Assembly (NCBI GenBank): GCA_963765875.1
Contig: CAVXYK010000029.1
Coordinates: 111,153-175,152, forward strand
Direction of reading: 5' to 3'
Source: an uncultured Chloroflexia bacterium
GTDB taxonomy: Bacteria > Chloroflexota > Anaerolineae > Caldilineales > Caldilineaceae
Length of the DNA: 64,000 nucleotides
Shown piece by piece: positions 1,026 to 31,400 of this stretch. The position numbers were made by a program, and so were the translations under genes. Numbering within the stretch: position 1 is the first letter of the stretch; each line of letters opens with the position of its first letter. The notes under the pieces are model-generated. The model saw only the letters and a program-made list of their open reading frames with translations. It was not told the DNA's origin and did no database searches.

Positions 1026-1892
1026 CTACTTGGGCTCGACTGTCGGCGTCAGCGGCACGAAGACCTCAACATCCTGGCGTGGTACAGTGGTGATGGCCGT
1101 CGTCTCAATGGTCAGAAACCGATAGGCACCCAACAACATCACCGTCGTGAGAACGATCGCGATCGGCCAATAAACCAGGTTTCTTCGCCGCACAACGTTT
1201 TGCGGCGGCCGGACCACCTTGACGCCCTGTTCAATTTCTGCAAGTTCCAGTTGATGCTCTTCTTCCATGACATGACGATCGATGTATCCGTTGAACATGC
1301 TCTTGTTGAAGTGCTTGAGGTGAACGTTGTACAGATGCCAGGAGAGAATTGAGAGCGTCGCCAGTAAAGCCTCGGCGCTGTGTGCGGCCTTGGAGGCCGG
1401 AATGATCTGTCCAGGCAGATATTGGGTCACCAGAACCGGGTTCCAGAGCGCAAACCCGGTGATTATCATAATCACTGTTCCCCAGATCACGGCCCAATAC
1501 TCAACCTTCTCGCCAAACGTATAGCGACCCATTTGCGGCGCTTCAGACGTCAACCCAAGATTGTAGGTGACCGTGTGGCCGGTGTCTTTGGCATCCTTTG
1601 GGCTGGGCAGCATGGTCAGCGGCAAACGCAGGACAAAGACCTTGTAACTCACCCGACCCAGATGATAGATGGACTCAAAAACCAAGATCGCCGCGGCCAC
1701 ATGATGGATGATGCGTGTCGTCTCGATTCCGCCCATCAATTGAATCGCCCCGTTGCCAAGAAACGAATCGGCATAGCGTTGGGGGATGCCGGTGATCACC
1801 AGCGTCGTGAAGCTCATAATGAGCAGCCCATGTTCGATCCGTGACCAAGTGTTAAAGCGCCAATATCTGGAAGGCTTATTGCTGTTCGCCAT
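1026..1892 (-). CDS. Integral-membrane cytochrome b-type subunit (FdnI/PhsC/hydrogenase cytochrome b-like)
   Basis: ORF 1026..1916. The ATG at 1892 (MANSNKPSRYWRFNTWSRIEHGLLIMSFTTLVITG) overlaps the stop of the upstream cytochrome gene. Several TM helices carry conserved His. Family assigned from motif memory only. Confidence 0.6.
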   Translation of the reverse strand: MANSNKPSRYWRFNTWSRIEHGLLIMSFTTLVITGIPQRYADSFLGNGAIQLMGGIETTRIIHHVAAAILVFESIYHLGRVSYKVFVLRLPLTMLPSPKDAKDTGHTVTYNLGLTSEAPQMGRYTFGEKVEYWAVIWGTVIMIITGFALWNPVLVTQYLPGQIIPASKAAHSAEALLATLSILSWHLYNVHLKHFNKSMFNGYIDRHVMEEEHQLELAEIEQGVKVVRPPQNVVRRRNLVYWPIAIVLTTVMLLGAYRFLTIETTAITTVPRQDVEVFVPLTPTVEPK

Positions 1893-3006
1893 GATCCTCC
1901 TCTTTCTTACGCGCACGTCGTTCTTTGGACGTACGATAGATGTCGCTTCCGATCAACAGCGTGAAGAAGCCAATCGTGATCGGGATGACGATGGCATAGA
2001 ACAGGTCCACCAGGTAGACCAATGTATTGTTCTGCAACGACGGCTTAAAGTGGCTGGTCCATGCATCGGGGAAATTCGTACTCGCATCCGGATGGCACTG
2101 TTGGCAGGTGACAAGCAAGTTTTCGCGGATCACTTGAGAATTTTCATCGCTGGCCGGCAGGATGTTGTGCACGCCGTGACAATCGTAACAGACTGCCTTG
2201 TTGGTCTCCTGATCGGGCGACTGTCTTTCGAAGAGTTCAACGGTCGTGCCGTGGAAGTCGGCCACGTAGGTGTCGAACACATCGGTGGAGATGCCATATT
2301 TGCCCATCATTTCTTCGTCTGCATGGCATTCGGCACACATCTCCGGCGACTGAAGCCTAAACTGGGCCGTCGTTGGATCTTCGATGTGGTGCACGCCGTG
2401 GCAGTCGGTACAGACCGGCACATCCGGATTGTCCTGGCCCATCAACGCCGCTCCGTGGACGCTGTGAGCATACTGATCGTTGATGGTAGAGTGGCATTGG
2501 GAGCAGGTCTGGGAGACACGTTCGCGTGGCTCTGCCGGCATCTGAATATCGTGGTTACCATGACAGTCGAAACAGGTCGCGGCATCGGCTAGGCCGGATG
2601 CATAGGCCTCGGCATGGACGCCGTCACGTTCTGCTTCGTAGATATCGATGTGGCAGTCCCGACACATGCCCTCGTTTTCGAAGTGGTAGCTGCGCAGACC
2701 TGTTAATGTCCTCGTCGGGTGAGGAAACTCGTACTGCTCCACGTTGCTGTGGCAGTCTGTGCAGAGCAATTGGCTATGCTCGTACTGTTCAGTCAGATGG
2801 AAGCCATGAACCGAGTTTTCCAACGTTTCCAGATCGACATTGAGCGGCAACGTGTCGCCCGAAAGCATGGTGATCTCGCTGGTCAGCAGCGTATGGCAGT
2901 TCTTACACTGGGCATCGGCCGGATAGACATGGGTATCGGTATGGCACGTCTGGCAGGTCTGATCCGGGCCCAGATTCGCAACCAGTTCGGCGTGGGTCTC
3001 GGCCAC
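1876..3006 (-). CDS. Decaheme c-type cytochrome with C-terminal TM anchor (probably the distal part of a larger gene, see the in-frame TAG finding)
   Basis: Ten CxxCH motifs (CQTCH, CKNCH, CTDCH, CRDCH, CFDCH, CSQCH, CTDCH, CAECH, CYDCH, CQQCH). C-terminal hydrophobic helix VYLVDLFYAIVIPITIGFFTLLIG plus a basic tail. The track start is a GTG in the same frame as ORF 3061..3573. Confidence 0.8.
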   Translation of the reverse strand: MAETHAELVANLGPDQTCQTCHTDTHVYPADAQCKNCHTLLTSEITMLSGDTLPLNVDLETLENSVHGFHLTEQYEHSQLLCTDCHSNVEQYEFPHPTRTLTGLRSYHFENEGMCRDCHIDIYEAERDGVHAEAYASGLADAATCFDCHGNHDIQMPAEPRERVSQTCSQCHSTINDQYAHSVHGAALMGQDNPDVPVCTDCHGVHHIEDPTTAQFRLQSPEMCAECHADEEMMGKYGISTDVFDTYVADFHGTTVELFERQSPDQETNKAVCYDCHGVHNILPASDENSQVIRENLLVTCQQCHPDASTNFPDAWTSHFKPSLQNNTLVYLVDLFYAIVIPITIGFFTLLIGSDIYRTSKERRARKKEEDHGEQQ

Positions 3007-3060
3007 ACGCTCGTCCTCGTAGGTCTCATGGCAGCTTTGGCAGGTGCCGACTGGGTCGGC

Positions 3061-3573
3061 CTACATGGCGTCCACCGGCTCGGCTTCATGCCCACCGTGG
3101 CAGTCGGTGCAGGTGGGCAGGCCTTCCTTGTCCTCAGCCATCAGATGGCCGGGATTATGAACCTCGCTCGACTCATGGCAGCGCTGGCAATTCTGCGAAA
3201 CATCCGCGGAGAATTCTTGGAGCGTTTCGGCGGGATTGGGCTCATGGGGAAAGCGGTAGCGCTGGGCGCCGCGATGGCAGTCAGTGCAGTAGACGTCCTC
3301 AGCGCTGTGCATACCGTGGACGGACTGATCGAGCGCCATAAGATCTACGCCCAGCGGCATTTCTTCACCGCTAGGCAACGTCATCATGTCCGTTCTGTCA
3401 CCGTGACAGCCGATACAGGCACTGTCCGGCGGAGGTTGGGCAGCCAACACAACGGCCGGCTGCGAGAGTCCGAGTAGTCCGAAAATTGCGATGGCAAATA
3501 GGACTGACACCGTTGCTAGGAGTCGCACACCTAAAATTCGGGCGCGCCTTCGTTGATCCATTGTTCGATCCAT
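3061..3573 (-). CDS. Tetraheme c-type cytochrome segment with N-terminal signal anchor (probably the proximal part of the 1876..3573 gene)
   Basis: TM/signal helix LLATVSVLFAIAIFGLLGL. Motifs CIGCH, CTDCH, CQRCH, CTDCH. Ends at TAG 3061-3063, in the same frame as the downstream decaheme ORF. Confidence 0.75.
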   Translation of the reverse strand: MDRTMDQRRRARILGVRLLATVSVLFAIAIFGLLGLSQPAVVLAAQPPPDSACIGCHGDRTDMMTLPSGEEMPLGVDLMALDQSVHGMHSAEDVYCTDCHRGAQRYRFPHEPNPAETLQEFSADVSQNCQRCHESSEVHNPGHLMAEDKEGLPTCTDCHGGHEAEPVDAM

Positions 3574-5207
3574 TCTAGTTCACGAGGAGCGAGGCTATTG
3601 GGATGCCCCGCCTTCTGTAGTTCGACGAGAAGGCTCTCGTCAGCATTGCCGGGAATGATCGCAGGTCCGAAGTTGCCTCCGTCCATCATCCCTTCGTAAG
3701 TGTCGAGATAGAGGCCGGCTGTGCCGCCATGGCAGGCAACGCAACGCGCCTCGAGGATCGGGCCTACGAGGTCATTCCAGGTTAAATCCGATTCGGGATA
3801 GGTCGGCAACCGAGCGTCAAGCACGTTAGTCAGCTCAACAATACTCGGCGCATTGAAGCCGGCATAAGTCCATTCCGTCGCATGACATGAGCTGTTAGCG
3901 CAGAAGCTTGTATCGCTGATTCCGCCGGGATCGCTGACCGTATGACAACCCTCACATGTGTCATCAAACTCGAAGCGATGGATAGAGATCCAATTGCTGT
4001 CGATGTGCGATTCAGGCTCGAATGATTCCTGCAGGGTCAGGATCGGTGAAGAGCCGTCTTCCGGGCTCTTGACAGGAATCGAATGACAGATGTTGCACTC
4101 AATGCGAATGCTCTCGCCTTGCGGTGTGAGATGTTTGCCATCATGGCAACGGAAGCAGCCGGCTGACTCGCTGTGGCCCAAGTTGTCAGGATGAGATCCC
4201 CAACTTGGTTCCATGGTGGAATACATCATCTTCTGGTAGAGATTCAGCACTTCATCAATTCCGGCACTGAGCGTCTCCTGATTGGCTGCGGTGTAATCCG
4301 GATAGTGCACCTCGTAGTAGCCGTTGAGACCCAGAATGGCACGCTTGGCTTCGTCCATATTGGGGTAATCGCGTTCAAAGACGGCCAGGGCGTTCTGCTT
4401 GAAATAAGGAATCTCCGGTGAGATGACGCCACGCGCCATGGAGTCATCGATCGCTGCACTCGGTGTCGGGAACTGATGGGAGACCCGATTGTGACAGCTT
4501 GTGCAGTCCATCTGCTTGATATTGTCGGCATTCTGCTCGACGAAGTCTGCCGGCAGATCGGCGTCAACATCGATAAATTCCTCAGATTCGCCGGAATCGG
4601 CGTAGTTGACGCGCACCCAGGGAATCTCCTGCTGGAGATGTGGGTCATCGGTGGAAATGTATTCGATGTCATTCTCAATGTGCCAGTGGATTCCCTTGCC
4701 GCGGCCCTCGCGTACGCTGCCGCCACCGGTCTTGAAGGACATATACTGGAGCAACTCCTCATTGTTCTGTTCGGCATCGTAATGCTTGAACTCGCGCAAC
4801 GAATCCGCTGAGAATTTCTCAGGATTGTGGCACTTTTCGCACACTTCAGTGGCCGGTCGGAACGACTTGGTGTAGACGGGCAGATGGTAGCCGGCGCCCG
4901 CATACTTGAGTACGTGGGTAATCTCTTTTGACTTGCGTGTCAACTGGGTGGCGATTGTGGCGCGACCAATGTGGCACTCGACGCACTTGACGTTAGCATG
5001 AGGAGATTCCAGGAATGAGATATACTCGGCCGGCATGGTGTGGCAGGCGGTTCCACAAAACGCATTGCTGTTGGTATATTCCCAGCCCGCTCCCATTATC
5101 AAGAAGACCGTTATCCCCGCGAAAAGAAAGAACGCGTAGGGCATAATGCGAACCCACAGGGGTGACGTCCGTGCGGGGGAAAAAAACCTACCTATGCGTT
5201 CAAACAT
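3531..5207 (-). CDS. NapC/NirT-like membrane-anchored multiheme cytochrome with C-terminal PSCyt1-like cytochrome c domain
   Basis: N-terminal TM helix followed by FCGTACHTMP...CVECHIG (NapC/NirT-like arrangement). Seven canonical CxxCH motifs plus CGTACH and CANSSCH. The C-terminus CVACHGG...IIPGNADESLL...WIEQWINEGA resembles the planctomycete cytochrome c domain. Confidence 0.7.
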   Translation of the reverse strand: MFERIGRFFSPARTSPLWVRIMPYAFFLFAGITVFLIMGAGWEYTNSNAFCGTACHTMPAEYISFLESPHANVKCVECHIGRATIATQLTRKSKEITHVLKYAGAGYHLPVYTKSFRPATEVCEKCHNPEKFSADSLREFKHYDAEQNNEELLQYMSFKTGGGSVREGRGKGIHWHIENDIEYISTDDPHLQQEIPWVRVNYADSGESEEFIDVDADLPADFVEQNADNIKQMDCTSCHNRVSHQFPTPSAAIDDSMARGVISPEIPYFKQNALAVFERDYPNMDEAKRAILGLNGYYEVHYPDYTAANQETLSAGIDEVLNLYQKMMYSTMEPSWGSHPDNLGHSESAGCFRCHDGKHLTPQGESIRIECNICHSIPVKSPEDGSSPILTLQESFEPESHIDSNWISIHRFEFDDTCEGCHTVSDPGGISDTSFCANSSCHATEWTYAGFNAPSIVELTNVLDARLPTYPESDLTWNDLVGPILEARCVACHGGTAGLYLDTYEGMMDGGNFGPAIIPGNADESLLVELQKAGHPNSLAPRELEWIEQWINEGAPEF

Positions 5208-7134
5208 TGCTGCTTCTCCTGGAGCGCACGATGCGCACCACTGAAAAGATCAAAATCCCCAATCCGACCAGTCCCGATAGGGCGTAGAAGCCATAGCGTA
5301 GCCAGAGCCCGGGCGTTGCTACCGGCACATCTACAGGCTGTCCGACGGACGGCAATGGCGTCGGAATGGGCGGTGCGGTTGGGGTCGGTCCGGGACCAAA
5401 GAAAGAGTTGTTGCCTTCCTGTTGTATCACTGAATAATCGATGATTTCCATTGCCCATTGCGGACTCTCACCAAGATCTGTGTGACAGAGATTGCATGCG
5501 TTCGGCATGACCTCCACGCCACCATGGTCAATACTGCCTTGGGGATTCGGTTGCAGGAACGTATGGCTGTGGATATCGTAGTCTACTGCGCTGGTGGCCA
5601 TCTTGGGCATATGACAGTCAGTACAGGTGAAGTCATACTCGGCGCTGGCCACTTCATGATAGGGCATATGCGTGATCAGTGCGCTCTTGTCGCCGTGGCA
5701 GTCGACGCAGAGTTCGTTCACCGGAGCCTTCAGTTGGGCCCGGCCGACACCGCCACCATGGACGGCATGGCATGATGCGCAACTGGTTGTATCGTCCGCC
5801 TGCATGCTATTGCCCGACGTCCAATCCAGGAATTGCTGATTGTGCAGCTTGGCGCTGCCGTCGGGCCAGGAATCCGCCGGATCCGCGGTGAAGGTGAAAT
5901 GGTCGGTCAGTTGATCGCCAGGACGGAAGGTGGCCGGAAAGGGGAATCCGTCCGGAGACATGCCACGGCTATGGCAGGCGCCGCAGACCTGGTCATCGAT
6001 CTGGGCAAAGGGCTTGACATTTTCCGGGTCAGCCACGTGGTCAGTCGACGGACCATGACAGCTCTCACAGCCAATACCAAATTCAGTGAACTCCCAGCTC
6101 TCGGTATCTAACCCCGTGATGTGACAGGTACCGCACGACTCGCGCCAGTCCGTCTCGTCCCAGGTCTCGGGATGATAGCTCGCCCATTCCTCAGTCTCTG
6201 AGTGCCACTCTGCCGGCAACACGTAAAAGCCGCCTTCGCTCCCCGTGATCTGTGCAGCCGACGTGATGTCGGTCGTGGAAGTCAGCCCCACTGTCCCGGT
6301 GATGCCGGATGCTGAGGCGATGCCGGTCGTCACTGTGATAAAACGCTGCATCCACTCGCCGCCGATGGTATAGGCGACGTCGGTCAGTTCGATGGTGCGA
6401 TGCGGGTCGTCCAGCGTAAAATCGGCGACGATGGCATCCGGATTGATCTCTACATCCTGAATCGTGCCGGCGTGGAGCGTGTCGCGCCAACTCAGGTAGA
6501 TGTCCTCATGGCAACCGAGACAGCGTCTGCTGCCACTGAAGTCGACAGCCCCTTCTCCGTAGCCAACACGGCTGTCAAAAAACGATTGCGCCCAGCCATC
6601 GGCTTCATCGGTGTGGCAATCCACACAGCGTTCCGGCATGACATCGACCATCCCCTCAAACGGCTCGACCGCGTGGGCGGTGTGGCAGTCCACACAGGTC
6701 GGAGCGTCCGGACCAGCCTCCAGATCTCCGTGGAACGGGTTGTGCGCATAATGACACGATTCGCAGGTCTGAGACGCTGTCAATGTGTAGGCGCGGCGAT
6801 CAGTGGCTGTGGTCGGTTCGTGGGGAAATCGGTACTCGGTGTCGTTGGTGTGGCAATCGGAACAGGAGATCTCAGTCTCTGATGAGGAACTGTGAGATGA
6901 GACAGAATGTGCCGATTGATCCAACAAATCTAGTGGCACCAACAACGGGAGCGTCTCGCCGGAGGAGAGCGTGAGTTCCCGTTGGTTGTCACCGTGGCAG
7001 CCGCGGCAGGCCAAATCCGGTGGCGACTGCGCATGGCTAGCGCCACCGGTAACTAGACTGAACGCTCCTACCAGGCTCAGAAGGAGCAGCCAACGGACAG
7101 CCGGTATCCTTCTGAACTCGCTAATCCTTTTCAT
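5200..7134 (-). CDS. 13-heme c-type cytochrome with signal peptide and C-terminal TM anchor
   Basis: Thirteen CxxCH motifs, including CTDCHMPK. Start chosen at MKRISEFRRIPAVRWLLLLSLVGAFSLV (ATG 7134); ATGs at 7161 and 7194 are also possible. Pro-rich linker plus TM helix plus RSRR tail at the C-terminus. Confidence 0.75.
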   Translation of the reverse strand: MKRISEFRRIPAVRWLLLLSLVGAFSLVTGGASHAQSPPDLACRGCHGDNQRELTLSSGETLPLLVPLDLLDQSAHSVSSHSSSSETEISCSDCHTNDTEYRFPHEPTTATDRRAYTLTASQTCESCHYAHNPFHGDLEAGPDAPTCVDCHTAHAVEPFEGMVDVMPERCVDCHTDEADGWAQSFFDSRVGYGEGAVDFSGSRRCLGCHEDIYLSWRDTLHAGTIQDVEINPDAIVADFTLDDPHRTIELTDVAYTIGGEWMQRFITVTTGIASASGITGTVGLTSTTDITSAAQITGSEGGFYVLPAEWHSETEEWASYHPETWDETDWRESCGTCHITGLDTESWEFTEFGIGCESCHGPSTDHVADPENVKPFAQIDDQVCGACHSRGMSPDGFPFPATFRPGDQLTDHFTFTADPADSWPDGSAKLHNQQFLDWTSGNSMQADDTTSCASCHAVHGGGVGRAQLKAPVNELCVDCHGDKSALITHMPYHEVASAEYDFTCTDCHMPKMATSAVDYDIHSHTFLQPNPQGSIDHGGVEVMPNACNLCHTDLGESPQWAMEIIDYSVIQQEGNNSFFGPGPTPTAPPIPTPLPSVGQPVDVPVATPGLWLRYGFYALSGLVGLGILIFSVVRIVRSRRSSNV

Positions 7135-8368
7135 TTGCGCTGCCGGCCTGATCTCGATCATGGTAGCCGATGGCGATTTCCTGCAACTCTTCATCCGTCA
7201 GGTTGTCGGCACGACCATCATCCCGATGACAGTTGCGACAGGCAAAATCCAACGCCAGGTATGGCTGCGAGAAAGCGCCGTCCTTGTCGAACTGAGATGT
7301 GGCATGTGGGTTGATGGCCATCAGATGGGTGCGGAGATCGCCACTGAATTGCTCAGGATCGCCCACAGCGCTCTTGGTCACACGCGGCATGTGGCAATCC
7401 ACACACTTGGCATGTCTACGGTCGGTGATTTTCTGGTAGATCTTGTTCTCGAAATGACAGCTTTCGCAATCAGTCTTGATGCCCAATCCACCTGAGGCGT
7501 ATTTGACCGTCTCATGCGGATTGTGGCAGTCGATGCAGCGCATGACGCGCTTCTTGGACTCAAAGAGTTCTTCATACTGCTCGTGATGCTTGATGAAACC
7601 GCCGCTGGCGTCGATCTCGGTCACTTCGCCGCGGATGTGACATTGGCCACAAAGCTCCGAGTCCCGGTCGATGGTGGCCGGCACCTGATAGGGATCGTTG
7701 ACATGGTTACTGCCGGGACCGTGGCATTCCTCACAGCCGATGCCGTCCTCTGCCCAGGTGCCGATTAGGCCCGGCAACCCATCTTGGTTGCCTTCGGGAA
7801 TGTAGCCGGTGGTGTGGCAACTGCCACAATCATAGGGCTTCTCTTCACCGGCATGGTAGGGTACCCAATCATCGCCCATTTTGAGCGTCTTGTTCTCCAA
7901 GTTGTACTGGGTGGCGGCATTCTCGTCGCCGGTGATAATGTAGCCTTCCTGGTCGATAAAGCGGGCCTTCCAACCGTAGCCGCCGATGACGTATAGGATG
8001 TCATCCCACGTGTACCCCTCTGGCGGATCCGACACCTCGGAGAAGGGATATTCAGGTGGCTGGCCGTCAACAACCTTGTTGAGCTTATATGGGTGGCCGG
8101 TCTCCCGATAGGTCGCGTAGAGATCTTCGTGGCATTCCTGACAGTTCTCTGAACCGACGTAGGTAGCAGGAGCCCAGTTCAGCCCATCTTCGCCGACAGG
8201 ACCGGCAGGACCTGCAAGACCTTGCGGACCAGGTGGTCCTGCTTCACCCTGGGGACCGGGCGCACCAGCAGGACCCATAGGACCTGCTTCTGGAGTCTGC
8301 AACTGGCAGCCGCCGCCCATGACCGCTACCATCAGTAGAACAGCCAGCAAAGCTACCGTACGTCGCAT
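7121..8368 (-). CDS. Octaheme c-type cytochrome lipoprotein with N-terminal collagen-like (G-X-Y)11 segment
   Basis: ATG 8368 is preceded by GGGAGGG. Signal plus lipobox MRRTVALLAVLLMVAVMGGGC. GPMGPAGAPGPQGEAGPPGPQGLAGPAGPVGEDG. Eight CxxCH motifs (CQECH, CGSCH, CEECH, CGQCH, CIDCH, CESCH, CVDCH, CRNCH). The track ORF start at 8521 lies in AT-rich leader and is unlikely. Confidence 0.8.
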   Translation of the reverse strand: MRRTVALLAVLLMVAVMGGGCQLQTPEAGPMGPAGAPGPQGEAGPPGPQGLAGPAGPVGEDGLNWAPATYVGSENCQECHEDLYATYRETGHPYKLNKVVDGQPPEYPFSEVSDPPEGYTWDDILYVIGGYGWKARFIDQEGYIITGDENAATQYNLENKTLKMGDDWVPYHAGEEKPYDCGSCHTTGYIPEGNQDGLPGLIGTWAEDGIGCEECHGPGSNHVNDPYQVPATIDRDSELCGQCHIRGEVTEIDASGGFIKHHEQYEELFESKKRVMRCIDCHNPHETVKYASGGLGIKTDCESCHFENKIYQKITDRRHAKCVDCHMPRVTKSAVGDPEQFSGDLRTHLMAINPHATSQFDKDGAFSQPYLALDFACRNCHRDDGRADNLTDEELQEIAIGYHDRDQAGSANEKD

Positions 8369-9230: not shown

Positions 9231-10349
9231 ATGAAAGCAGACCGTATTTTTGCCATTTTTGCCATTGTCTTGATGGCGACTGTGCTGACGACCGGCTGTG
9301 TGTACATGCTCACACCCGAGGCTGAGATGCCAGCAGATACGGAAGCAGAAACATCTGCCGCTGAAGACTGGATGGCCCCTGAGGGCGCCCTGGTCGCAGC
9401 CAAGGTCGACACCGCACCAACCCTGGACGGCATGGCCGACGAGGCCGTCTGGGCGGATGCAGTCGCGATCAGTGTCGACGTCGAGGATGGCGCCAACATG
9501 GAAACGTCCACCGTCAACATCAAGTCTGTCTACGCCGACGACATGGTCTACTTCCTGGTGAAGTGGGCAGATCCGACCCAGAGCTTCATGCGCAGCCCCT
9601 GGCAGAAGCAAGATGACGGAAGCTGGGTCAAATTGAGCGATCCCGACGACCGCGGTGGCGACAACAATGTTTGGTACGAAGATAAGATGTCCTTCATCTG
9701 GCCCATTGACGAAGGCATTCGTAGCTTCGAGAGCAAGGGCTGTTTCACCGCCTGTCATGATGGCGAAAATGAAGACGCCAAGCCCTACGGCAACAAGTAT
9801 ACCGATGAAGGCATGGGCGACATCTGGCACTGGAAATCGGTGCGCAATGTCAACCAAATTGACGACCAGTATCTCGACTCGACCCAATATTCGCCTGAGA
9901 CCCCTTCTGCCGGACGCCACGGCGATCCCAAGGATGGCGGCGGCTACGTGAACAACGACAACGAAGACAAGTCTGCTCCCATGTGGATGGGCCCGGAAGG
10001 CTATCCTGTAGACGGCAGCCCCGGCTATATCCTGGACTCGGAGAAATTACCCTTCGACGATAGCCTTTTCGTGGCCGGCGACATGATTGGCGGCGTGACT
10101 ACGGCTCCCTTTGAGGGCGACCGCGGCGACATCTCTGCGGGTTGGGTCTATGAAGACGGCATGTGGACAGTCGAGATTGGACGTGCACTCGAGACCGGCT
10201 CCGAGTACGATGTCCAATACGACGACCTGAGCAAGCCCTACTACTTCGGCGTAGCAGTCTTTGACAACGCCCAGGTACGTCACGCCTATCAGTACAAGTC
10301 GGAACGAATTGGTCTTCCAGCCATAGAGCGTATGCTTCACAGTAGATAA
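9231..10349 (+). CDS. Lipoprotein with ethylbenzene-dehydrogenase/DMSO-reductase-type heme-binding (EB_dh-like) domain
   Basis: Lipobox LTTGC. AAKVDTAPTLDGMADEAVWADA..., VYFLVKWADPT, DIWHWKSVR and GCFTACHDG are typical of the EB_dh heme domain as I remember it. Confidence 0.55.
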   Translation: MKADRIFAIFAIVLMATVLTTGCVYMLTPEAEMPADTEAETSAAEDWMAPEGALVAAKVDTAPTLDGMADEAVWADAVAISVDVEDGANMETSTVNIKSVYADDMVYFLVKWADPTQSFMRSPWQKQDDGSWVKLSDPDDRGGDNNVWYEDKMSFIWPIDEGIRSFESKGCFTACHDGENEDAKPYGNKYTDEGMGDIWHWKSVRNVNQIDDQYLDSTQYSPETPSAGRHGDPKDGGGYVNNDNEDKSAPMWMGPEGYPVDGSPGYILDSEKLPFDDSLFVAGDMIGGVTTAPFEGDRGDISAGWVYEDGMWTVEIGRALETGSEYDVQYDDLSKPYYFGVAVFDNAQVRHAYQYKSERIGLPAIERMLHSR

Positions 10350-10415: not shown

Positions 10416-11797
10416 CTATTCAAAATAGACATCATCCTCTTCAAGCGCCCTGCGCAGATCCGCATAGGGCAAGGCCCGAATGTCGCAATCCGCAGCCGGC
10501 AGAGAGCGCGGCAGCCGTGCCCGCGGCCTGCCCCATGCCCATGCAGGAGACCGTGTTGCGCGTCGACATGTGCGCGTCGTGATCGGCCGTGATCATCATG
10601 CCGGTGGCGAAAAGGTTGTCCACGCCGGCAACACAGAGCGCCCGATAGGGGATGCCATAGGTGCCGCCGTCCTTGATCTGGAAGCGCGGCGCCATGTCGT
10701 GAAAGCCGTAGGCGAAGACGTCGTCCTCAAAGTGCCGGCCTTCCAGCACGTCCTCACGGGTGATGTCGTAGTCGCAGGTGATGAGCCGCCCACGCCGGGG
10801 ATTGATGTGCGGGCTGGTGCGCGGCGATGAAGGCCTTTTCGCAGCCGGGCACGAATTTGCGGAAGAGTTCGATGGCCGCAACTTGGCGTCGCCGCAGTTC
10901 CAACTCTGCCTCGGCTGTGGCGTCACGATCCGTGGGGCTGACCTTCATCTTGTAGTTGAGCTTGATGAACATGAAGTAGTCGTCGTGCACGGTCGTGGTC
11001 ACGGTGGCCATGCCGATGCGCCGGGCCTCTTCCATGAACTCGGTGGGCAGATTCTTACTGATGCCCATGAGGCGCACGATCTGGTCTTCCTTGCCGCTGC
11101 GCCAGCCCTCGGAATACTCCTTGACCGCATCGTTCTCTTTGAGAAATTCGTAGTACTTCTCAACATCAACGCCGCCTACGCCGATGCTGTTGGCCACCGG
11201 ATAGTCGTTGGGCTCGGAGAAATCGGCCCCGGCATAGGCGCAGAGCTCGCCGAGGCCGGTGCAGTCCACGAACGTGTGAGCGAAGATGGCCTCACGCCCG
11301 GATCGGCTCTCTGCGATGACGCCGGTGATGCGTGAGCCGTCCATGATGGCGCCGGTCAGCAACGTGTTGACGCAGACGGTCACGCCCGCCTCCACCAGCA
11401 TCTCGAAGGTGACGAGCTTGTAGATCTCGGTGTCGATGGCCGTGCAGATCGAGTCGTAGTCGTAACCTTCGGTCATCTCGGCGTGGCCCGACGTGCCGCC
11501 GGCCTCGGCCAGCCGATCGACGATCTCCTGTGGGATGCCCTTGACCACCTGGCGCTTTTCGACGCCGGGGAAGGCCTTCCACAGATTGTAATAACTGTGC
11601 AGCGCCGTTCCACCCTCGACCACCGTGCCGCCGGGATAGCCCTTGGCCTCGATAAGCACCGTGTTGGCCCCACGTCGTGCCGCGGCCAGCGCTGCTACGA
11701 CACCGCCTGTTCCTCCGCCGGCGACGACGACGTCAAAGGTACGGGCGGGTAGTTCTCTACTCGGTTCTTGATAGCGGTGCATAATGATTCCCTTCAT
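10416..11797 (-). CDS. FAD-dependent oxidoreductase (FAD_oxidored family-like), two apparent frameshifts
   Basis: N-terminal dinucleotide fold FDVVVAGGGTGGVVAALAAARRGA (ORF 10754..11797). The C-terminal part continues in ORF 10441..10926 (ITCDYDITREDVLEGRHFEDDVFAYGFHD...). A third frame near 10495 gives the plausible end ADCDIRALPYADLRRALEEDDVYFE*, stop at 10416-10418. Confidence 0.7.
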
Positions 11798-12884: not shown

Positions 12885-14034
12885 ATGAACTATCAGGCAC
12901 TGATCGACTATTTCAACCAACATGAAGACGAGATGTTGGAAACCATCAAGTTGCTGGTCACCACTGAGACGCCCAGCGACGACAAGCCACGACTGGATGC
13001 CTTTGCCGAGCTGCTGGCGGGTCGGCTCAGCGCGGTCGGCGCTGAAACCGAAATCCTACCGACAGAGATCCAGGGCAACCATGTGCGTGCTCGCTTCAAC
13101 AACGGCGACTACGACGCCGACGTCAAACCGGCGTTGATTCTCTGTCACTACGACACGGTCTGGCCGGTCGGCTCATTGGAGACCCATCCATTCCGCATCG
13201 AAGAGGACGGCAAGGGCTACGGCCCGGGCATCTTCGACATGCAGTCGAGTCTCATGCTTTCCGAGTATGCGCTACGCGCGATTGGTGATCTGGCCTTGCA
13301 GTTGCCCCGCCCCATCACCATTCTGATGACGTCGGACGAGGAAGTAGGCAGCCCCACCTCCCGGGCGTTGATCGAAGAGGAGGCTCGGCGCTCCGAGTAT
13401 GCGTTGGTGATGGAATCACCGCTGCCTGGCGGCGTGATCAAGACGGCACGCAAGGGCGGCGGCAGCTTCGGCCTTGAGATCACCGGTCGCGCCGCCCATG
13501 CCGGTGTCGAGCCGGAGGCAGGCATCAGCGCCGTCCACGAGTTGGCCCACCAGATCCTCGCCATTCAGGCGCTAACCGATCTGGGAAAAAGGCACCACGG
13601 TCAGTGTCAATGTAGTCGAGGGTGGCACCAAATCAAATGTAATTCCGGCCAAGGCGGTCGCCAGCATTGACATGCGCGCCTGGACCCAGGACGAGGTAGA
13701 TCGGGTCATGACAGCCATGTACAGTCTGCAACCGGTGCTTCCCGGTGCAACGATCAAGGTGACAGGCGGGGCCAATCGCCCGCCGCTGGAACGCGCAGTC
13801 ACTGCAGCGCTCTTCGAACGTGTACGTGAATTGGGCAAAAAGATGGATCTTGAGCTTGAGGAAGGCAGCACCGGCGGCGGCAGCGATGCCAGCTTCACCG
13901 GCGCGCTGGGCGTGCCCACGCTGGACGGTCTGGGCATCCCAGGCCATGGCGCCCACGCCGATCATGAGCACATCGAGGTCGACCAGATGGTGTCGCGAGC
14001 AGCATTGCTAGTTGCGATGTTGATAGAACTGTAG
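12885..14034 (+). CDS. M20-family metallopeptidase (carboxypeptidase G2 / glutamate carboxypeptidase-like), one homopolymer frameshift
   Basis: ORFs 12846..13670 and 13672..14034 join. The second frame is already open from about 13586 and reads GTTVSVNVVEGGTKSNVIPAKAVASIDMRAW. The shift sits in CTGGGAAAAAGG at about 13583-13590. Motifs HYDTVWP, SDEEVGS, GRAAHAG, GGGSDASF. ATG 12885 has GGAAGGA upstream. Confidence 0.8.
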
Positions 14035-19877: not shown

Positions 19878-21253
19878 GTTTCAATCCACGCCCCCCGTGA
19901 GGGGGGCGACGTGGTGGCTAGACTCAGGATGTCTAATCCAAAAATGTTTCAATCCACGCCCCCCGTGGGGGGGCGACGCGATTGCCTGCACGTTATGGCC
20001 ACAATGCGAGCCGTTTCAATCCACGCCCCCCGTGAGGGGGGCGACCTTTATCGGCATCGAACTGGATGAGCAACTACACGGTTTCAATCCACGCCCCCGC
20101 GTGAGGGGGCGACGGCACGTTCGGAATTGGTCGACGTGGCCGAAGCCGTTTCAATCCACGCCCCCCGTGGGGGGCGACCAACAGCGCCGAGCCGGGCGGC
20201 GAATCCCGGCAGTTTCAATCCACGCCCCCCGTGAGGGGGCGACTGCTTCTGATCATTGGCCGCAGGCGATGCGAAGAGTTTCAATCCACGCCCCCCGTGG
20301 GGGGGCGACGTGATGACTTGGAGGATAATATGAGCGACGATCTGTTTCAATCCACGCCCCCGTGTGGGGGGCGACTTGCTTCTGATCATCGGCCGCAGGC
20401 GATGCGAAGAGTTTCAATCCACGCCCCCCGTGAGGGGGGCGACGTGGAACGCACCCTCTCCGGTCAGAACTATGCAAGTTTCAATCCACGCCCCCCGCGT
20501 GGGGGCGACCGGTGCCGTTCGTGTTGGCTATGACCATCAGCTATGTTTCAATCCACGCCCCCCGTGGGGGGGCGACCAGACGTGCAGTTTGATGAGCAAA
20601 TGTATCAGAGGCATGTTTCAATCCACGCCCCCGTGAGGGGGCGACTCGGATTGGTTGCCGTGGTCGACCGTGTGCTGGAGTTTCAATCCACGCCCCCCGT
20701 GAGGAGGGCGACATGATATTGCTATGTCCGTTGCCCGCCGTACAAAAGTTTCAATCCACGCCCCCCGTGAGGGGGGCGACGTGGGCGAAGGCTGTCGGCA
20801 TGAGCGCGATTGAGGTTGTTTCAATCCACGCCCCCCGTGAGGGGGCGACGGGATACGTTCAAAGCACTAGCAAGCAACTATATTGTTTCAATCCACGCCC
20901 CCCGTGAGGGGGGCGACGAGGTTGCAATTCTACAGAAACAAATAGCAGCACTGTTTCAATCCACGCCCCCCGTGAGGGGGGCGACCGCACTAAGCGGGAC
21001 AGCTGCACCTGACTGAGCAAGTTTCAATCCACGCCCCCCGTGAGGGGGCGACATTAAATCCACTTGGTCCATAGCACGATGCAACGTTTCAATCCACGCC
21101 CCCCGTGAGGGGGGCGACATAATGATTTTTCAAAATCGGCTCTTTGATTAGTGTTTCAATCCACGCCCCCCGTGAGGGGGGCGACGGCGTACGTTCAAGG
21201 CGAGTATGCATCTGAGGCCGGTTTCAATCCACGCCCCCCGTGAAGGGGGCGAC
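19878..21253 (-). CRISPR. Type I-C CRISPR array, 21 repeats / 20 spacers, transcribed on the minus strand
   Basis: Plus-strand repeat GTTTCAATCCACGCCCCCCGTGAGGGGGGCGAC. The reverse complement ends ...GTGGATTGAAAC, as in I-C repeats. Spacers are 33-38 nt. Repeat copies are 31-33 nt and differ mainly in C/G-run length. cas2 and the leader lie on the 21254 side. Confidence 0.95.
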
Positions 21254-28498: not shown

Positions 28499-31400
28499 TC
28501 AATCAAAGAATATGGCTTCCCCGCCACGACTTTCCGGGAGGACAAGCCCGGTTTGGGGATGGTAATAGTGCTTCATCCAATCTTCGTCTAACACATGGCA
28601 TACATCAGCGATTGTCTGAATGACACCCAGACTCTGCAAACTCTGAAATTCTCGTTCGTAAATGTTGACGGTGTACACCTGCAACTTGCGCAAGGTGCTA
28701 AACGGATAGAGCGTGTGCCGCAATTCCCGCAGCCGAATTTTCGCTTCTTTATCATACGGAATCACCACCGACACCGTATCGTCATCAATCAACTTGAAGT
28801 TTTCGGCCGCTGTTTTGAAATCGAAATCCAAGCTTCGGGAACCTTTGTCGAGAAAACTTAGAATTCTCCTGGCATCGAAACTGGCTTTATCATGCAGGGT
28901 GTAAAGACGGTCGTAGTAGGCCTCAATTGCCGCAATCGTCGTTGGATCCGTACTGAAATCACGCAGGGTACTCTTGGCCACAGCACCCGTCTGTGCGATG
29001 AAGATCGGCGTGCGCTTGATGAAGTCGGTCTTGGGGTCGAACACGAGCATTTCCCCGATCGATTGCTTACCTTCCCGATTGATTCGCCCTGCCGCCTGGA
29101 TGATTGAGTCCAATCCCGCCAGCGCACGATAGCCGACCGGGAAATCCACGTCGATCCCGGCTTCCATAACCTGCGTCGAGACGACGCGGCAGACGTCCCC
29201 GTCTTCAAGCCGTTGGCGGATTTCCGTCAGGATTACCTTGCGGTGTACCGGACACATCAAGGTTGAGAGGTGAAATCGCCCTTCCCCGACCAGTCCATCA
29301 AACAGCCCCTTGGCATGGCGACGGGTGTTGACAATACACAAAACCTGGCGCTGCGCTTCAAGCTTCTCCAGTAACTCTTGATCGGGCAGAGTTCCCAGTT
29401 CCTTCACCTGTACACGGCGATAGAAATCGAACAACTGTTGGGGATTGGGAGCCAGTTCCGTAAACTGCGTACTGTCTGGGAAGAATCGCTGCAAAGATGG
29501 TTGCGTGGCTGTGCAAAAGACTGTGCTGACTCCGTAATTATGCACCAATTCCTGAACAGCCGATAGGCTGGGTGTCATGTATTCTCGCGGCAGCGTTTGA
29601 GCCTCATCGAAAATGATCACGCTCTTGGCGATGTTGTGCAGTTTGCGCGCCCGTGATTTCTTGCTGGCAAACAGGGACTCGAAGAACTGCACATTGGTCG
29701 TAACCACGATAGGGATGTCCCAGTTCTCGGCAGCCAATCTCAGCTTCTCATGTACGTCGTTGGTCTCATCGTCTGATGTATGTCGCAGCCCCTCCCAATC
29801 AAAATTGGAATGGTGCTCCAAGATGTTTTCCTCTCCCAGTATGCCCAATGACTCCCTAAACACCGCAGCGTTTTGTTCAATGATGCTGGTAAAGGGAATG
29901 ACATAGATGACTCGCTTCAACCCGTGAGCAATGGCGTGATTGAGTGCAAAAGCCATTGAGGCCAGTGTCTTGCCGCCACCAGTCGGCACGGTCAAGGTGA
30001 AAAAGCCCGGATCTTGGTTGGCTTTAGCCCGGCAGGCGTGCAGGGTTTCGGTACGCTTGCGGTTGATGGGCGTTTGCGGATCCTCGAAACGCTGCAAATA
30101 TCGGTTGAATTGCTCAGCCAATGCCTCGATACTGGCATACTGACCGCGGGGCTTTTCGACCTCTTGCATATACCGTTCAGTGTCCAGCCAGTCGGCATCC
30201 ACCAAGGTAGAGAACAACATGCGCGTCAAGAAGGATATTGAAAAGCCTGGATATTCACGATTGACTTTTATGTGCAGGGGCTGGAATTGTAGTTGGTTGG
30301 CATCAAGTTCCGTGGCATAGGCGCTGTAGTCTTCCAGTTGTTTCTTCTCCCGCCGCGCCAGAAGGGTTCCATCCGCTTCCGTATCACCAAGGCTGCCATA
30401 GTCGGGCAGACCAGAATGGTGCCCAGCGATGCAGTAGGACAGTAACTCGGCATAGGTGTTATCGGGCTTTGCGGGGAATAGGCTGACTATTTCCCGTGCG
30501 CCGGCAGTAGCATGATCGACTCGCTTGTTCGAGCCGCGCAACCGATCCTGAAAAGCCTGCGAGTATTTGCCAATGTCGTGCAAAATCCCAGCTACTCGTG
30601 CCAGTTCGGACACACCGGCATCTCGCCCCAGCTCAAAAGCCAGATCGCCAGTTTGGAATAAGTGGTCTCTCAGCAACTGCCACTCTGATTCATCGATGCC
30701 GGGCTTCGAGTGGGCATAGTATCGCTCGTCGAAGGTTTTGAACGCTGAAACAGCGTACAACTCAGCCAGCTGTCGTGCTTCTCGAATCAGCGACTCCCGC
30801 AATTTTACCGGCTCCAACACTTCGACTTTGCTGCCCCACCCGCGTATCCACGGCAACATCTCCTGCGGTTCGGCTACCCAAGCCCGCCAGAGCAGACTGC
30901 CGTCCGCTTCCAACACGGTCTGCTGCGACTGATGCCAGCGCGTCTCCTCCACCCGCTTGGCCACGCGTGGATGGAACTTGAGCACCACCTCCACCGGCTC
31001 GGCCTCCGTGTACCAGATGCCCCAGGCGTTAGCGAGCTTGGCACGCGGGTCAAAATCATCAGGAATCTCATAGCTGTCTCGGAGAATCTCGGCCGAGCGC
31101 AGCCGCTCCACCTTGAAAGTGCGCACAGCGCTTGGCGGCTCACGCCAGCCGATGACGTGTGCAGTCTGACCGACGGCATACGGTTCGATGAAGTAGGGCG
31201 AAAAGGTGTACTCAAAGACCCGCCCGTCTTCCATCTGGTGACTCACCTTCACCTTGCGCCCCACGGACCACGCCTCGGTCAGCTTCTGCAGCACGTCCAG
31301 GTAGACCGGATCACGATAGGCCGCAGCCTCGTCCATCATTTCGGCAGAACGCAGCAGATGTCGGCTCACGTTGTTGTCCAGACGCCGCAAGGCCATGCCC

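What the first reader, a model, noticed from the sequence alone, without database searches (positions are those of the whole stretch)
8183..8284. Collagen-like (G-X-Y)11 stalk between the lipid anchor and an octaheme cytochrome
Directly after the lipobox Cys (MGGGC) and a short linker, the protein reads GPM GPA GAP GPQ GEA GPP GPQ GLA GPA GPV GED G. That is 11 uninterrupted Gly-X-Y triplets rich in Pro, followed by an 8-heme domain.

Bacterial collagen-like repeats (Scl, BclA-type) form trimeric stalks. Fused to a multiheme domain, such a stalk would trimerise the cytochrome and hold it away from the membrane. That is an attractive design for electron transfer across a thick envelope. I do not know of a characterised example.
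Basis: partly seen in the sequence, partly recalled or inferred. Interest (0 to 1): 0.65.

Follow-up and report, generated by a model that had tools for sequence, protein, structure and literature searches.

The report
Collagen-stalked, lipid-anchored octaheme cytochrome
A membrane-anchored eight-heme cytochrome of a Caldilineaceae-type bacterium (Chloroflexota) carries a short collagen-type (Gly-X-Y) stalk that hundreds of relatives keep in exact register, an undescribed but widespread way of holding an electron-transfer protein at a fixed distance from the membrane.

Summary
Window 8183-8284 (minus strand) encodes GPMGPAGAPGPQGEAGPPGPQGLAGPAGPVGEDG: 11 Gly-X-Y triplets plus a closing Gly. 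It lies 7 residues after a lipobox Cys and 13 residues before the first of eight CxxCH motifs. It is the only Gly-X-Y run of 5 or more triplets in all six frames of the 64 kb window.

It is a conserved feature, not low-complexity noise.
- 101 of 108 full-length close homologues carry 9-16 uninterrupted triplets.
- The last Gly sits exactly 13 residues before heme 1 in 100 of 101.
- Gly frequency is 0.96 at ten in-register positions and at most 0.03 between them, while X and Y vary.

The heme domain belongs to the OcwA/OmhA/MccA/c554 clade. The gene heads a conserved operon of multiheme cytochromes plus a cytochrome b.

Within this family the stalk clusters phylogenetically, mainly in Chloroflexota and in a second clade that includes Myxococcota. 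An unrelated 5-6-heme lipoprotein family (Bacteroidota, Longimicrobiales) has the same Cys-(GXY)n-heme layout, so the design arose more than once.

Trimerisation is inferred, not shown. The stalk is short and unhydroxylated, and a few paralogues use ordinary linkers. I found no paper describing this architecture.

Verdict: real, conserved, a new variant of known kinds, moderately interesting.

The parts
7121..8368 (-). Whole gene: 415-aa lipoprotein octaheme c-type cytochrome with a collagen-like stalk. It is the first gene of a minus-strand cytochrome operon.
   Evidence: ORF and translation. RBS GGGAGGG upstream of the ATG. 3557 homologues with E<=1e-5. Pfam multiheme families plus Collagen.
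8306..8368 (-). Signal peptide and lipobox (aa 1-21, MRRTVALLAVLLMVAVMGGGC). Cys21 is the predicted lipid-attachment site.
   Evidence: Read directly from the sequence. Cys21 is conserved in at least 90% of 83 aligned homologues. Homologues show LAAC/LAGC/VAAC lipoboxes.
8285..8305 (-). Short non-repeat linker QLQTPEA (aa 22-28).
   Evidence: In homologues this gap is 0-16 aa and trades off against triplet number, so Cys-to-heme-1 stays 56 +/- 2 aa.
8183..8284 (-). Collagen-like (Gly-X-Y)11-Gly stalk (aa 29-62). About 10 nm long if triple-helical.
   Evidence: exact sequence. (unique in the window). (Gly 0.96 at in-register positions; X = 64% Pro, Y = 27% Pro/25% Ala/15% Gln). PF01391 at 26.2 bits.
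8144..8182 (-). Conserved 13-residue junction LNWAPATYVGSEN between the last Gly and the first heme Cys.
   Evidence: The spacing is exactly 13 residues in 100 of 101 homologues. Motif [LVI][SD][YFW]x[PA][PA]x[YF]VGS.
7124..8143 (-). Octaheme domain (aa 76-415, eight CxxCH), OcwA/OmhA/MccA/c554 clade.
   Evidence: Best PDB sequence hit is 6I5B OcwA at E 2.3e-16; MccA 3e-4; OmhA 4e-4; c554 8e-4. Foldseek top hits are OmhA, OcwA and MccA. Heme motifs.
5200..7194 (-). Next gene: 13-heme cytochrome with an N-terminal signal sequence and a C-terminal Pro/Thr-rich linker (FFGPGPTPTAPPIPTPLPSVG...) plus a TM anchor. The likely start is the internal Met at 7134.
   Evidence: The tail motif is conserved in L003, L004, L006, L008, L009, L013 and L057. 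Synteny.
3531..5207 (-). NapC/NirT-like membrane-anchored cytochrome: N-terminal TM, seven CxxCH plus variant motifs.
   Evidence: Pfam Cytochrom_NNT and PSCyt1.. Conserved in the long form of the operon.
1876..3573 (-). 15-heme cytochrome with a C-terminal TM helix, partner of the cytochrome b. Here an in-frame TAG at 3061-3063 interrupts it.
   Evidence: Alignment to uninterrupted orthologues in L003, L057 and L013. Conserved next to cyt b in at least 12 Chloroflexota loci.
1026..1916 (-). Membrane cytochrome b (Ni_hydr_CYTB/b561 type), the presumed quinol-interacting subunit.
   Evidence: Pfam PF01292. Conserved at the operon end in L001, L003, L009, L010, L012, L013, L019, L022, L023, L028 and L057.

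Best explanation
The gene encodes a lipoprotein. After signal-peptidase-II processing it is held in the outer leaflet of the cytoplasmic membrane by lipidated Cys21. This is in a Caldilineaceae-type Chloroflexota cell, a group regarded as monoderm with a multilayered envelope.

The 11-12 Gly-X-Y triplets are a true collagen-type segment. Three chains most likely wind into a triple helix about 10 nm long (34-36 residues x about 0.29 nm). Help probably comes from having all three N-termini fixed in the membrane and from the C-terminal heme domain. The result would be a triply anchored 'lollipop' with three octaheme heads (24 hemes) at a fixed stand-off from the membrane.

The head is an OcwA/OmhA/MccA-clade cytochrome. 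The operon supplies a cytochrome b plus a 15-heme TM subunit (presumed quinol-coupled module), a NapC/NirT-like cytochrome, and a 13-heme cytochrome tethered by a Pro-rich linker of similar length. The stalked octaheme is therefore most likely a distal, wall-level member of an electron conduit between the quinone pool and an extracytoplasmic or extracellular redox partner.

Shown: the anatomy, the conservation and register of the repeat, the homology of the head, and the synteny. Inferred: lipidation, triple-helix formation and trimer stoichiometry, the direction of electron flow, and the substrate.
For: - Exact repeat, unique in the window.
- 101 of 108 close homologues have 9-16 uninterrupted triplets. 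The last Gly is 13 aa from heme 1 in 100 of 101. Cys-to-heme-1 is 56 +/- 2 aa.
- Gly is 0.96 at ten in-phase positions and at most 0.03 elsewhere, while X and Y vary. Pro is 64% at X and 27% at Y, richer than the 19-31% X-Pro typical of bacterial collagen-like proteins.
- On a tree of heme domains the stalk is inherited, not scattered: 8 state changes against a mean of 29.9 (minimum 24) in 500 shuffles.
- The same Cys-(GXY)n-heme layout exists in an unrelated 5-6-heme family. 113 of 120 members have at least 3 triplets, with a mode of 10-11.
- Head homology to cell-surface cytochromes of Gram-positives, OcwA and OmhA.
- Conserved operon with cyt b and TM-anchored multiheme cytochromes.
- 20 of 24 Chloroflexota orthologues carry the stalk, against 0 of 31 orthologues from other or unclassified lineages in the genome sample.
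- The Caldilineae envelope is multilayered and considered monoderm (PMC13319060).
Against: - No oligomer prediction or experiment was possible.
- 11-12 unhydroxylated triplets are short. From my own knowledge, (Pro-Pro-Gly)10 melts near room temperature, and characterised bacterial collagens have 50-79 or more triplets. The helix would need the head or the membrane to hold it together.
- OcwA is monomer/dimer in solution.
- Seven of 108 close homologues, some encoded in tandem with a stalked copy, use non-GXY A/P/E/Q linkers or are not lipoproteins. A generic tether can therefore suffice.
- The second family includes members with only 3-5 triplets, too short for a stable helix.
- Stalked forms also occur in diderm phyla, so spanning a thick monoderm wall is not a general explanation.
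- The AF2 monomer model is poor (pLDDT 64).
- The operon's 15-heme gene carries an in-frame TAG in this window.
Confidence: 0.6

Rival explanations
1. Monomeric spacer. The Gly-X-Y/Pro-rich tract is an extended, polyproline-II-like or flexible tether on a single chain. It gives the heme head reach from its lipid anchor without forming a triple helix or trimerising the protein.
For: - The tract is short (11-12 triplets) and no hydroxylase was seen among the ORFs of the window that I scanned.
- Paralogues have non-GXY linkers of 41-52 aa.
- Family-2 members have only 3-5 triplets.
- OcwA is monomer/dimer.
- The neighbouring 13-heme protein uses a plain Pro/Thr linker.
Against: A generic linker has no reason to keep Gly at 96% at every third position over at least 10 triplets, with at most 3% Gly between them. 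It also has no reason to restrict length changes to whole triplets in fixed register to the head. The non-collagen paralogues show what an unconstrained linker looks like here, and it is not periodic.
Confidence: 0.25
2. Heterotypic collagen assembly. The stalk pairs with chains of paralogous stalked cytochromes, or with large collagen-like proteins of the same organism. This would give mixed trimers or dock the cytochrome onto a collagenous sheath or fibre.
For: - Some loci encode two stalked octaheme paralogues (L010, L011, L023).
- In Caldilineaceae locus L005 a giant collagen-like protein (more than 290 triplets) lies directly downstream of the stalked octaheme gene.
Against: - This window has only one Gly-X-Y run.
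- The giant collagen neighbour was seen in 1 of about 24 Chloroflexota loci.
- The stalk length of 9-16 triplets is tied to the head register, not to a partner.
Confidence: 0.07
3. Compositional accident or misannotation. The Gly/Pro-rich run would be translated from GC-rich DNA or from a wrongly chosen frame or start, with no structural meaning.
For: Pfam Collagen scores just below the gathering threshold (26.2 against 27.2 bits). A longer upstream ORF start exists.
Against: - The window is only 57% GC and has no other such run in six frames.
- The frame is fixed by the signal peptide upstream and the heme domain downstream.
- The feature is conserved in hundreds of homologues with varied codons and varied X/Y residues.
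Confidence: 0.01

Closest known systems
OcwA (Thermincola potens, PDB 6I5B) and OmhA (Carboxydothermus ferrireducens, PDB 6QVM), cell-surface multiheme cytochromes of Gram-positive bacteria
   Same: The heme domains are homologous: phmmer E 2.3e-16 to OcwA over aa 69-250, and Foldseek top hits are OmhA and OcwA. They share the OcwA/OmhA/MccA/c554 clade (PMC9250108). Both sit outside the cytoplasmic membrane of bacteria without an outer membrane and are implicated in extracellular electron transfer (PMC6703420).
   Different: OcwA has 9 hemes and OmhA 11; this protein has 8. No lipobox or Gly-X-Y stalk is reported for either. OcwA is monomer/dimer, and OmhA is S-layer associated according to its PDB title. 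The function of the window protein is untested.
MccA octaheme sulfite reductase (Wolinella succinogenes, PDB 4RKM)
   Same: Octaheme, same structural clade. Sequence hit E 3e-4 and Foldseek hits. From my memory of Hermann et al. 2015, MccA is a homotrimer, so a trimeric head would have precedent in the clade.
   Different: MccA is a soluble periplasmic enzyme with a heme-copper active site and a CX15CH heme. It has no stalk and no lipid anchor. No MccA-type special motif was seen here.
Bacterial collagen-like surface proteins Scl1/Scl2 (Streptococcus pyogenes) and BclA (Bacillus anthracis)
   Same: Unhydroxylated Gly-X-Y repeats form, or are predicted to form, a stalk that carries a globular head. 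This is the 'lollipop' design on the cell surface (PMC8968730).
   Different: - Those stalks have 50-79 or more triplets, vary in number between strains, are rich in Thr or charged residues, and rely on dedicated trimerisation domains (V domain, C1q-like CTD).
- They are anchored by LPXTG or to the exosporium.
- Here the stalk has 9-16 triplets of nearly fixed length and is very Pro-rich. It is N-terminally lipid-anchored, and the head is a multiheme cytochrome.
Braun's lipoprotein Lpp (functional analogue only)
   Same: A lipidated N-terminal Cys is followed by a rigid trimeric rod that acts as a spacer of defined length in the envelope (from my own knowledge).
   Different: Lpp is an alpha-helical coiled coil with no functional head, in the diderm periplasm. 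There is no sequence relationship.
PgcA of Geobacter sulfurreducens
   Same: A lipoprotein-type extracellular multiheme cytochrome whose heme units are joined by Pro-rich repeats. The authors explicitly asked whether a collagen-like structure forms (PMC5732950).
   Different: The PgcA repeats are Pro-Thr, not Gly-X-Y, and CD showed no unusual structure. It is triheme and unrelated in its heme domain.
Second collagen-stalked cytochrome family found here (about 360 aa, 5-6 hemes; Cyclobacteriaceae, Salinivirgaceae, Bacteroidales, Longimicrobiales, Kapaibacteriales)
   Same: The layout is identical: lipobox Cys, immediately (GXY)n, then the first CxxCH. Triplet number ranges 3-16 with a mode of 10-11.
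   Different: The heme domain is not detectably related; only the collagen part aligns. The hosts are diderm phyla. The stalk starts directly at Cys+1 ('CEGPEGP') and ends about 6 aa before heme 1.

Membership tests
Collagen triple helix repeat (Pfam PF01391) / prokaryotic collagen-like proteins | Uninterrupted Gly-X-Y periodicity over many triplets | tested here: met
   11 triplets plus Gly in the window. 9-16 triplets in 101 of 108 homologues. Gly 0.96 in phase and at most 0.03 out of phase.
Collagen triple helix repeat (Pfam PF01391) / prokaryotic collagen-like proteins | Score at or above the Pfam gathering threshold | tested here: not met
   26.2 bits against a cut-off of 27.2 for the window protein. 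The precomputed tables list PF01391 for it and most homologues, but as weak hits.
Collagen triple helix repeat (Pfam PF01391) / prokaryotic collagen-like proteins | High imino-acid content at X and Y, compatible with an unhydroxylated triple helix | tested here: met
   X is 64% Pro and Y is 27% Pro across 101 homologues. Bacterial collagen-like proteins average 19-31% Pro at X (PMC8968730).
Collagen triple helix repeat (Pfam PF01391) / prokaryotic collagen-like proteins | Actual formation of a trimeric triple helix (CD 220 nm band, cooperative melting, trimer mass) | not testable with these tools
   Only a monomer AF2 prediction was available, and it was poor (pLDDT 64). There is no multimer option.
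Scl/BclA-type surface collagens | Long, strain-variable collagen region (tens to over 100 triplets) with a dedicated trimerisation domain (V or C1q-like) and LPXTG or exosporium anchoring | tested here: not met
   The stalk is 9-16 triplets with a near-constant total length. No such domains appear in Pfam. The anchor is an N-terminal lipobox.
OcwA/OmhA/MccA/cytochrome c554 clade of multiheme cytochromes | Significant sequence similarity of the heme domain to clade members | tested here: met
   6I5B OcwA E 2.3e-16, 4RKM MccA 3.3e-4, 6QVM OmhA 4.1e-4, 1BVB c554 8.1e-4. Pfam Cytochrome_C554 at 36.1 bits, above its 20.8 cut-off.
OcwA/OmhA/MccA/cytochrome c554 clade of multiheme cytochromes | Shared fold and heme-core arrangement | tested here: inconclusive
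   Foldseek ranks OmhA, OcwA and MccA first (probability 0.98-1.0). But TM-scores are only 0.26-0.38, because the heme-less AF2 model is of low confidence.
OcwA/OmhA/MccA/cytochrome c554 clade of multiheme cytochromes | Penta-coordinated (catalytic-type) heme(s) at defined positions | not tested
   Axial ligands cannot be assigned reliably from this model.
Bacterial lipoproteins (signal peptidase II substrates) | n-region, hydrophobic h-region and a lipobox ending in an invariant Cys | tested here: met
   MRR / TVALLAVLLMVAV / MGGG-C fits the PROSITE PS51257-type pattern (my reading). The Cys is conserved in at least 90% of 83 homologues. Homologues have L-A-[AG]-C.
Bacterial lipoproteins (signal peptidase II substrates) | Demonstrated acylation and processing | not testable with these tools
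   This needs labelling or globomycin experiments.
Cbc-type quinol:cytochrome c modules (cyt b plus TM-anchored multiheme subunit, as in Geobacter CbcBA/CbcL) | Adjacent genes for a Ni_hydr_CYTB-type cytochrome b and a multiheme cytochrome with a TM helix | tested here: met
   PF01292 cyt b at 1026-1916 lies next to a 15-heme protein with a C-terminal TM. The pairing is conserved in at least 12 loci. The comparison with Cbc is from my own knowledge; homology to Cbc proteins was not tested.

The most novel reading that the evidence does not exclude
A short collagen triple helix would be a convergently evolved molecular ruler for lipid-anchored multiheme cytochromes. It would trimerise them into 15-24-heme heads held at about 3-35 nm from the membrane, with about 10 nm the commonest value. 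On this reading it arose independently in at least two unrelated cytochrome families, across Chloroflexota, Myxococcota, Bacteroidota and Gemmatimonadota. It would define a previously unrecognised structural class of extracytoplasmic electron-transfer proteins.

A more exotic reading is not excluded (about 5%): the stalks co-assemble with giant collagen-like proteins, as seen in locus L005, into cytochrome-decorated collagen fibres.
Probability: 0.45. Interest if true: 0.72.

Novelty: new variant of a known kind. Interest (0 to 1): 0.6.

Why it matters
How bacteria without an outer membrane move electrons across a multilayered wall is poorly understood, and for Chloroflexota almost nothing is known. 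This is a large, strongly conserved protein family whose design is easy to test.

The tests are direct. One can ask whether the protein is a trimer, whether the stalk is about 10 nm long, and whether changing the triplet number changes function. The result would bear on the geometry of extracellular electron transfer in abundant environmental Chloroflexota (Caldilineaceae, Ardenticatenaceae, Promineifilaceae, Anaerolineales).

The same layout recurs in an unrelated cytochrome family in other phyla, which suggests a general engineering solution: a rigid spacer plus multimerisation of heme heads. It would also give protein engineers a compact natural collagen stalk (about 12 triplets, 64% Pro at X) that presumably folds without hydroxyproline.

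Tried and rejected
- **AF2 monomer prediction** with an 83-sequence alignment. Mean pLDDT was 64 because no hemes are modelled. It was useful only to rank OmhA, OcwA and MccA in Foldseek, and says nothing about the stalk or oligomer.
- **Literature.** Six full-text searches for the architecture combined collagen terms or OcwA with multiheme, c-type cytochrome, extracellular electron transfer or Chloroflexi. None found a description. The only near hit was PgcA, where collagen is mentioned as an analogy.
- **'Stalk occurs only in monoderms'.** The genome sample supported this (20 of 24 against 0 of 31). I rejected it as a rule after finding a Myxococcota-named member of a second stalked clade and the Bacteroidota/Longimicrobiales family.
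- **The divergent EB_dh-domain lipoprotein (9231-10349) as a conserved partner.** phmmer found no counterpart in any of the 83 related loci at E<1e-8, so I dropped it.
- **Slippage-prone VNTR as in Scl/BclA.** TRF found only a weak 9-nt x 3.2 repeat, and homologues keep a near-constant total length. Rejected.
- **Prolyl hydroxylase in the window.** None appeared among the 29 ORFs scanned with Pfam. The rest of the genome was not available.
- **Promoter/terminator scan** of the operon region was uninformative.
Full report

Yes. Window 8183-8284 on the minus strand translates to GPMGPAGAPGPQGEAGPPGPQGLAGPAGPVGEDG. That is eleven Gly-X-Y triplets closed by a Gly, with a twelfth in-phase 'GLN'.

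The gene is 7121-8368 (-) and encodes 415 aa. The mechanical ORF list extends it to 8521. Three things fix the start at ATG 8368: a GGGAGGG Shine-Dalgarno just upstream, the signal peptide, and every homologue.

The N-terminus MRRTVALLAVLLMVAVMGGGC is a lipoprotein signal, and the Cys is conserved in at least 90% of 83 aligned homologues. The order is then a 7-aa linker, the repeat, 13 residues, and the first of eight CxxCH motifs.

No other run of 5 or more Gly-X-Y triplets exists in any frame of the 64 kb window, which is 57% GC. Pfam Collagen scores 26.2 bits, just below its 27.2-bit cut-off. The DNA is not a clean tandem repeat.

**2. Is it conserved?**

A search of the 5.8-billion-protein collection gave 3557 hits at E<=1e-5. 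The best 120 are mostly proteins of about 415 aa from Caldilineaceae, Anaerolineales and Promineifilum.

Of 108 full-length members, 101 carry an uninterrupted run of 9-16 triplets, with a mode of 13. Three features argue for structural selection rather than a sloppy linker:
- **Fixed register.** The last Gly lies exactly 13 residues before the heme-1 Cys in 100 of 101 sequences.
- **Constant length.** The distance from lipobox Cys to heme 1 is 56 +/- 2 residues, with triplet number trading off against the short non-repeat segment after the Cys.
- **Sharp periodicity.** Anchored on heme 1, Gly frequency is 0.96 at positions -14, -17 ... -41 and at most 0.03 at the positions between them. The X and Y residues change freely.

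X is 64% Pro and 12% Glu. Y is 27% Pro, 25% Ala and 15% Gln. This is much more Pro-rich than the 19-31% X-Pro reported for bacterial collagen-like proteins (PMC8968730).

Seven close homologues lack the repeat. They have aperiodic A/P/E/Q/T linkers of 41-52 aa or a signal-peptidase-I type signal. Some are encoded in tandem with a stalked copy: L004 8270-9490, and probably P0084 beside P0024, whose source locus tags are consecutive.

**3. What is the head?**

The best solved relative by sequence is OcwA of Thermincola potens (6I5B, E 2.3e-16, aa 69-250). It is followed by MccA, OmhA and cytochrome c554.

The AF2 monomer model is poor, with mean pLDDT 64. Foldseek still ranks OmhA, OcwA and MccA first.

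These four form 'clade 3' in a published phylogeny of the NrfA/HAO/MccA superfamily (PMC9250108). OcwA is the cell-surface terminal reductase of a Gram-positive electroactive bacterium, and is a monomer/dimer mixture in solution (PMC6703420).

**4. Surroundings**

The gene heads a minus-strand operon, in this order:
- octaheme lipoprotein;
- 13-heme cytochrome with a conserved C-terminal 'FFGPGPTPT.PP.PTP.PSVG' linker of about 35 aa plus a TM anchor;
- NapC/NirT-like heptaheme cytochrome with an N-terminal TM;
- 15-heme cytochrome with a C-terminal TM;
- Ni_hydr_CYTB-type cytochrome b.

This long form recurs in L003, L009, L013 and L057. A short form (stalked octaheme, 15-heme, cyt b) occurs in L001 (Promineifilum), L010, L012, L019, L022, L023 and L028. 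Ccm maturation genes are often nearby.

The constant core is therefore a cyt b plus TM multiheme module and the stalked octaheme. From my own knowledge, that module is reminiscent of Geobacter Cbc quinol oxidoreductases.

The rest of the window is housekeeping plus a Cas3 gene.

**5. Distribution of the stalk**

In one-genome-per-species GTDB contigs, 20 of 24 Chloroflexota orthologues have 5 or more triplets. None of 31 orthologues from other or unclassified lineages do: Gemmatimonadota, Ignavibacteria, Bacteroidota, Proteobacteria, Zixibacteria, Calditrichota, Methanoperedenaceae, three unclassified MAGs and others. Most of these begin the conserved 'YVGS..C..CH' shortly after the signal peptide or lipobox; the Gemmatimonadota and Benthicola ones carry an extra N-terminal region instead.

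Among 149 representatives clustered at 50% identity, 28 have 5 or more triplets, nearly all directly after a lipobox-like Cys (two, P0147 and P0189, carry the run internally). Lengths run from 5 to 40 triplets.

On a neighbour-joining tree of heme domains the character is strongly clustered. There are 8 parsimony changes, against a mean of 29.9 and a minimum of 24 in 500 shuffles. The stalk falls in two main clades. One sequence of the second clade is annotated as Myxococcota.

Loci from Cyclobacteriaceae and Roseivirgaceae also encode, near their stalk-less octaheme orthologue, a different lipoprotein of about 360 aa with 5-6 hemes. It reads 'FVTGC-EGPEGPIGPKGDTGDTGPQGPAGPQGPVGAD-ANESCKQCH'. 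Its heme domain does not align with the query.

That second family has 572 hits. Of its top 120, 113 carry 3-16 triplets starting at Cys+1. It spans Bacteroidota, Longimicrobiales and Kapaibacteriales.

The layout 'lipidated Cys, collagen repeat, multiheme head' has therefore evolved at least twice, and it is not confined to monoderms.

**6. How it most likely works**

Strict in-phase Gly with free X/Y is the defining requirement of collagen triple-helix packing, and I know of no other fold that imposes it. The best explanation is a homotrimeric stalk about 10 nm long that fixes the height of three octaheme heads above the membrane.

The neighbouring 13-heme protein has a Pro-rich tether of comparable contour length. 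This fits both heads working at the same level of the envelope.

Caldilineae have a multilayered envelope (cytoplasmic membrane, peptidoglycan, inner layer, shared outer layer, S-layer-like layer) and are considered monoderm (PMC13319060). A defined stand-off makes sense there.

Caveats:
- Trimerisation is inferred.
- From my own knowledge of collagen peptides, 11-12 unhydroxylated triplets are marginal unless both ends are held in register.
- OcwA is not a trimer.
- Non-collagen paralogues and very short variants exist.
- The direction of electron flow and the substrate are unknown.

I put about 0.6 on the triple-helical trimer model, about 0.25 on a monomeric extended tether, and small probabilities on heterotypic collagen assembly or artefact.

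**7. Novelty**

Automated annotation already flags the domain pair. One JGI entry reads 'Collagen triple helix repeat/Cytochrome c554', and one NCBI entry reads 'collagen-like protein'.

Six full-text searches for the architecture found no paper describing or testing a collagen-stalked cytochrome. A review of prokaryotic collagen-like proteins does not contain the word 'cytochrome' or 'lipoprotein'.

Both modules are known kinds. Their conserved, convergent combination is a new variant. Interest is moderate to good at 0.6: not categorically new, but widespread, cleanly testable, and relevant to how Chloroflexota wire their envelopes.

Noticed in passing
window 3061-3063 (minus strand), within 1876-3573: An in-frame TAG splits the operon's 15-heme, C-terminally TM-anchored cytochrome gene into 170-aa and 376-aa ORFs. 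The sequence on both sides, including a CQSCH heme motif between the stop and the next GTG, aligns with uninterrupted orthologues, which have N, L or R at that position. It is a nonsense mutation, a sequencing error or read-through.
   Followed up: partly
L047 8989-10071 (+), L063 15039-16127 (+), L055 about 4000-4107: An unrelated 5-6-heme lipoprotein family of about 360 aa in Bacteroidota, Longimicrobiales and Kapaibacteriales has the same Cys-(GXY)3-16-CxxCH layout. Many members have Thr/Asn/Asp-rich triplets (GTNGTDG), reminiscent of the glycosylated BclA repeats.
   Followed up: partly
L005 10547-14396 (+): In a Caldilineaceae MAG the stalked octaheme gene is followed by a giant collagen-like protein. 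It appears as two ORFs of about 700 and 679 aa, possibly one gene broken in the repeats. It has more than 290 Gly-X-Y triplets, a signal peptide, globular ends, and Cys-bounded Asp/Asn-rich loops (C.D.NHNGQADADEDINGDGKVDTWDC) directly before the collagen runs. Similar Cys/Asp loops precede the GXY run in octaheme homologues P0147 and P0189.
   Followed up: no
window 9231-10349 (+): A lipoprotein with an ethylbenzene-dehydrogenase-gamma-like (EB_dh, heme b type) domain (Pfam E 2e-38) is transcribed divergently from the cytochrome operon. phmmer found no counterpart in the 83 related loci, so the adjacency is not conserved.
   Followed up: yes
window 20211-20443 and 28499-31729 (-): There is a CRISPR-like array fragment: 66-nt period, repeat about GTTTCAATCCACGCCCCCCGTGGGGGGGCGAC. 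Nearby is a 1076-aa Cas3 with N-terminal WYL and WCX domains fused to HD and helicase domains.
   Followed up: no
window 41777-42194: A 66-nt tandem repeat (6.3 copies, 95% identical) sits exactly between an ORF with the PHP domain (40818-41777) and an ORF with the DNA polymerase III alpha catalytic, finger and HhH domains (42202-44364). The dnaE-like gene appears split by a repeat insertion.
   Followed up: no
window 35377-35680: A heptanucleotide repeat, TGCTGCT x 43 copies at 98% identity, lies inside overlapping ORFs near 33545-35764.
   Followed up: no
L010 about 11163-11243 (-), L011 about 13946-14017 (-), L023 about 11593-11655 (-); L004 8270-9490: Several Chloroflexota loci carry a second octaheme paralogue in the same cluster. 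It either has a shorter stalk (7-9 triplets) or has a non-collagen linker. This suggests sets of heads tethered at different heights or with different rigidity.
   Followed up: no
P0005, P0009, P0017, P0053, P0062, P0068, P0121, P0136: There are tandem-duplicated versions of the octaheme domain: 15-16 hemes in about 720 aa, a 1398-aa protein with four matched stretches, and a 30-heme 896-aa protein (P0136) with a 10-triplet stalk. Most of the 15-16-heme forms lack the collagen repeat.
   Followed up: no
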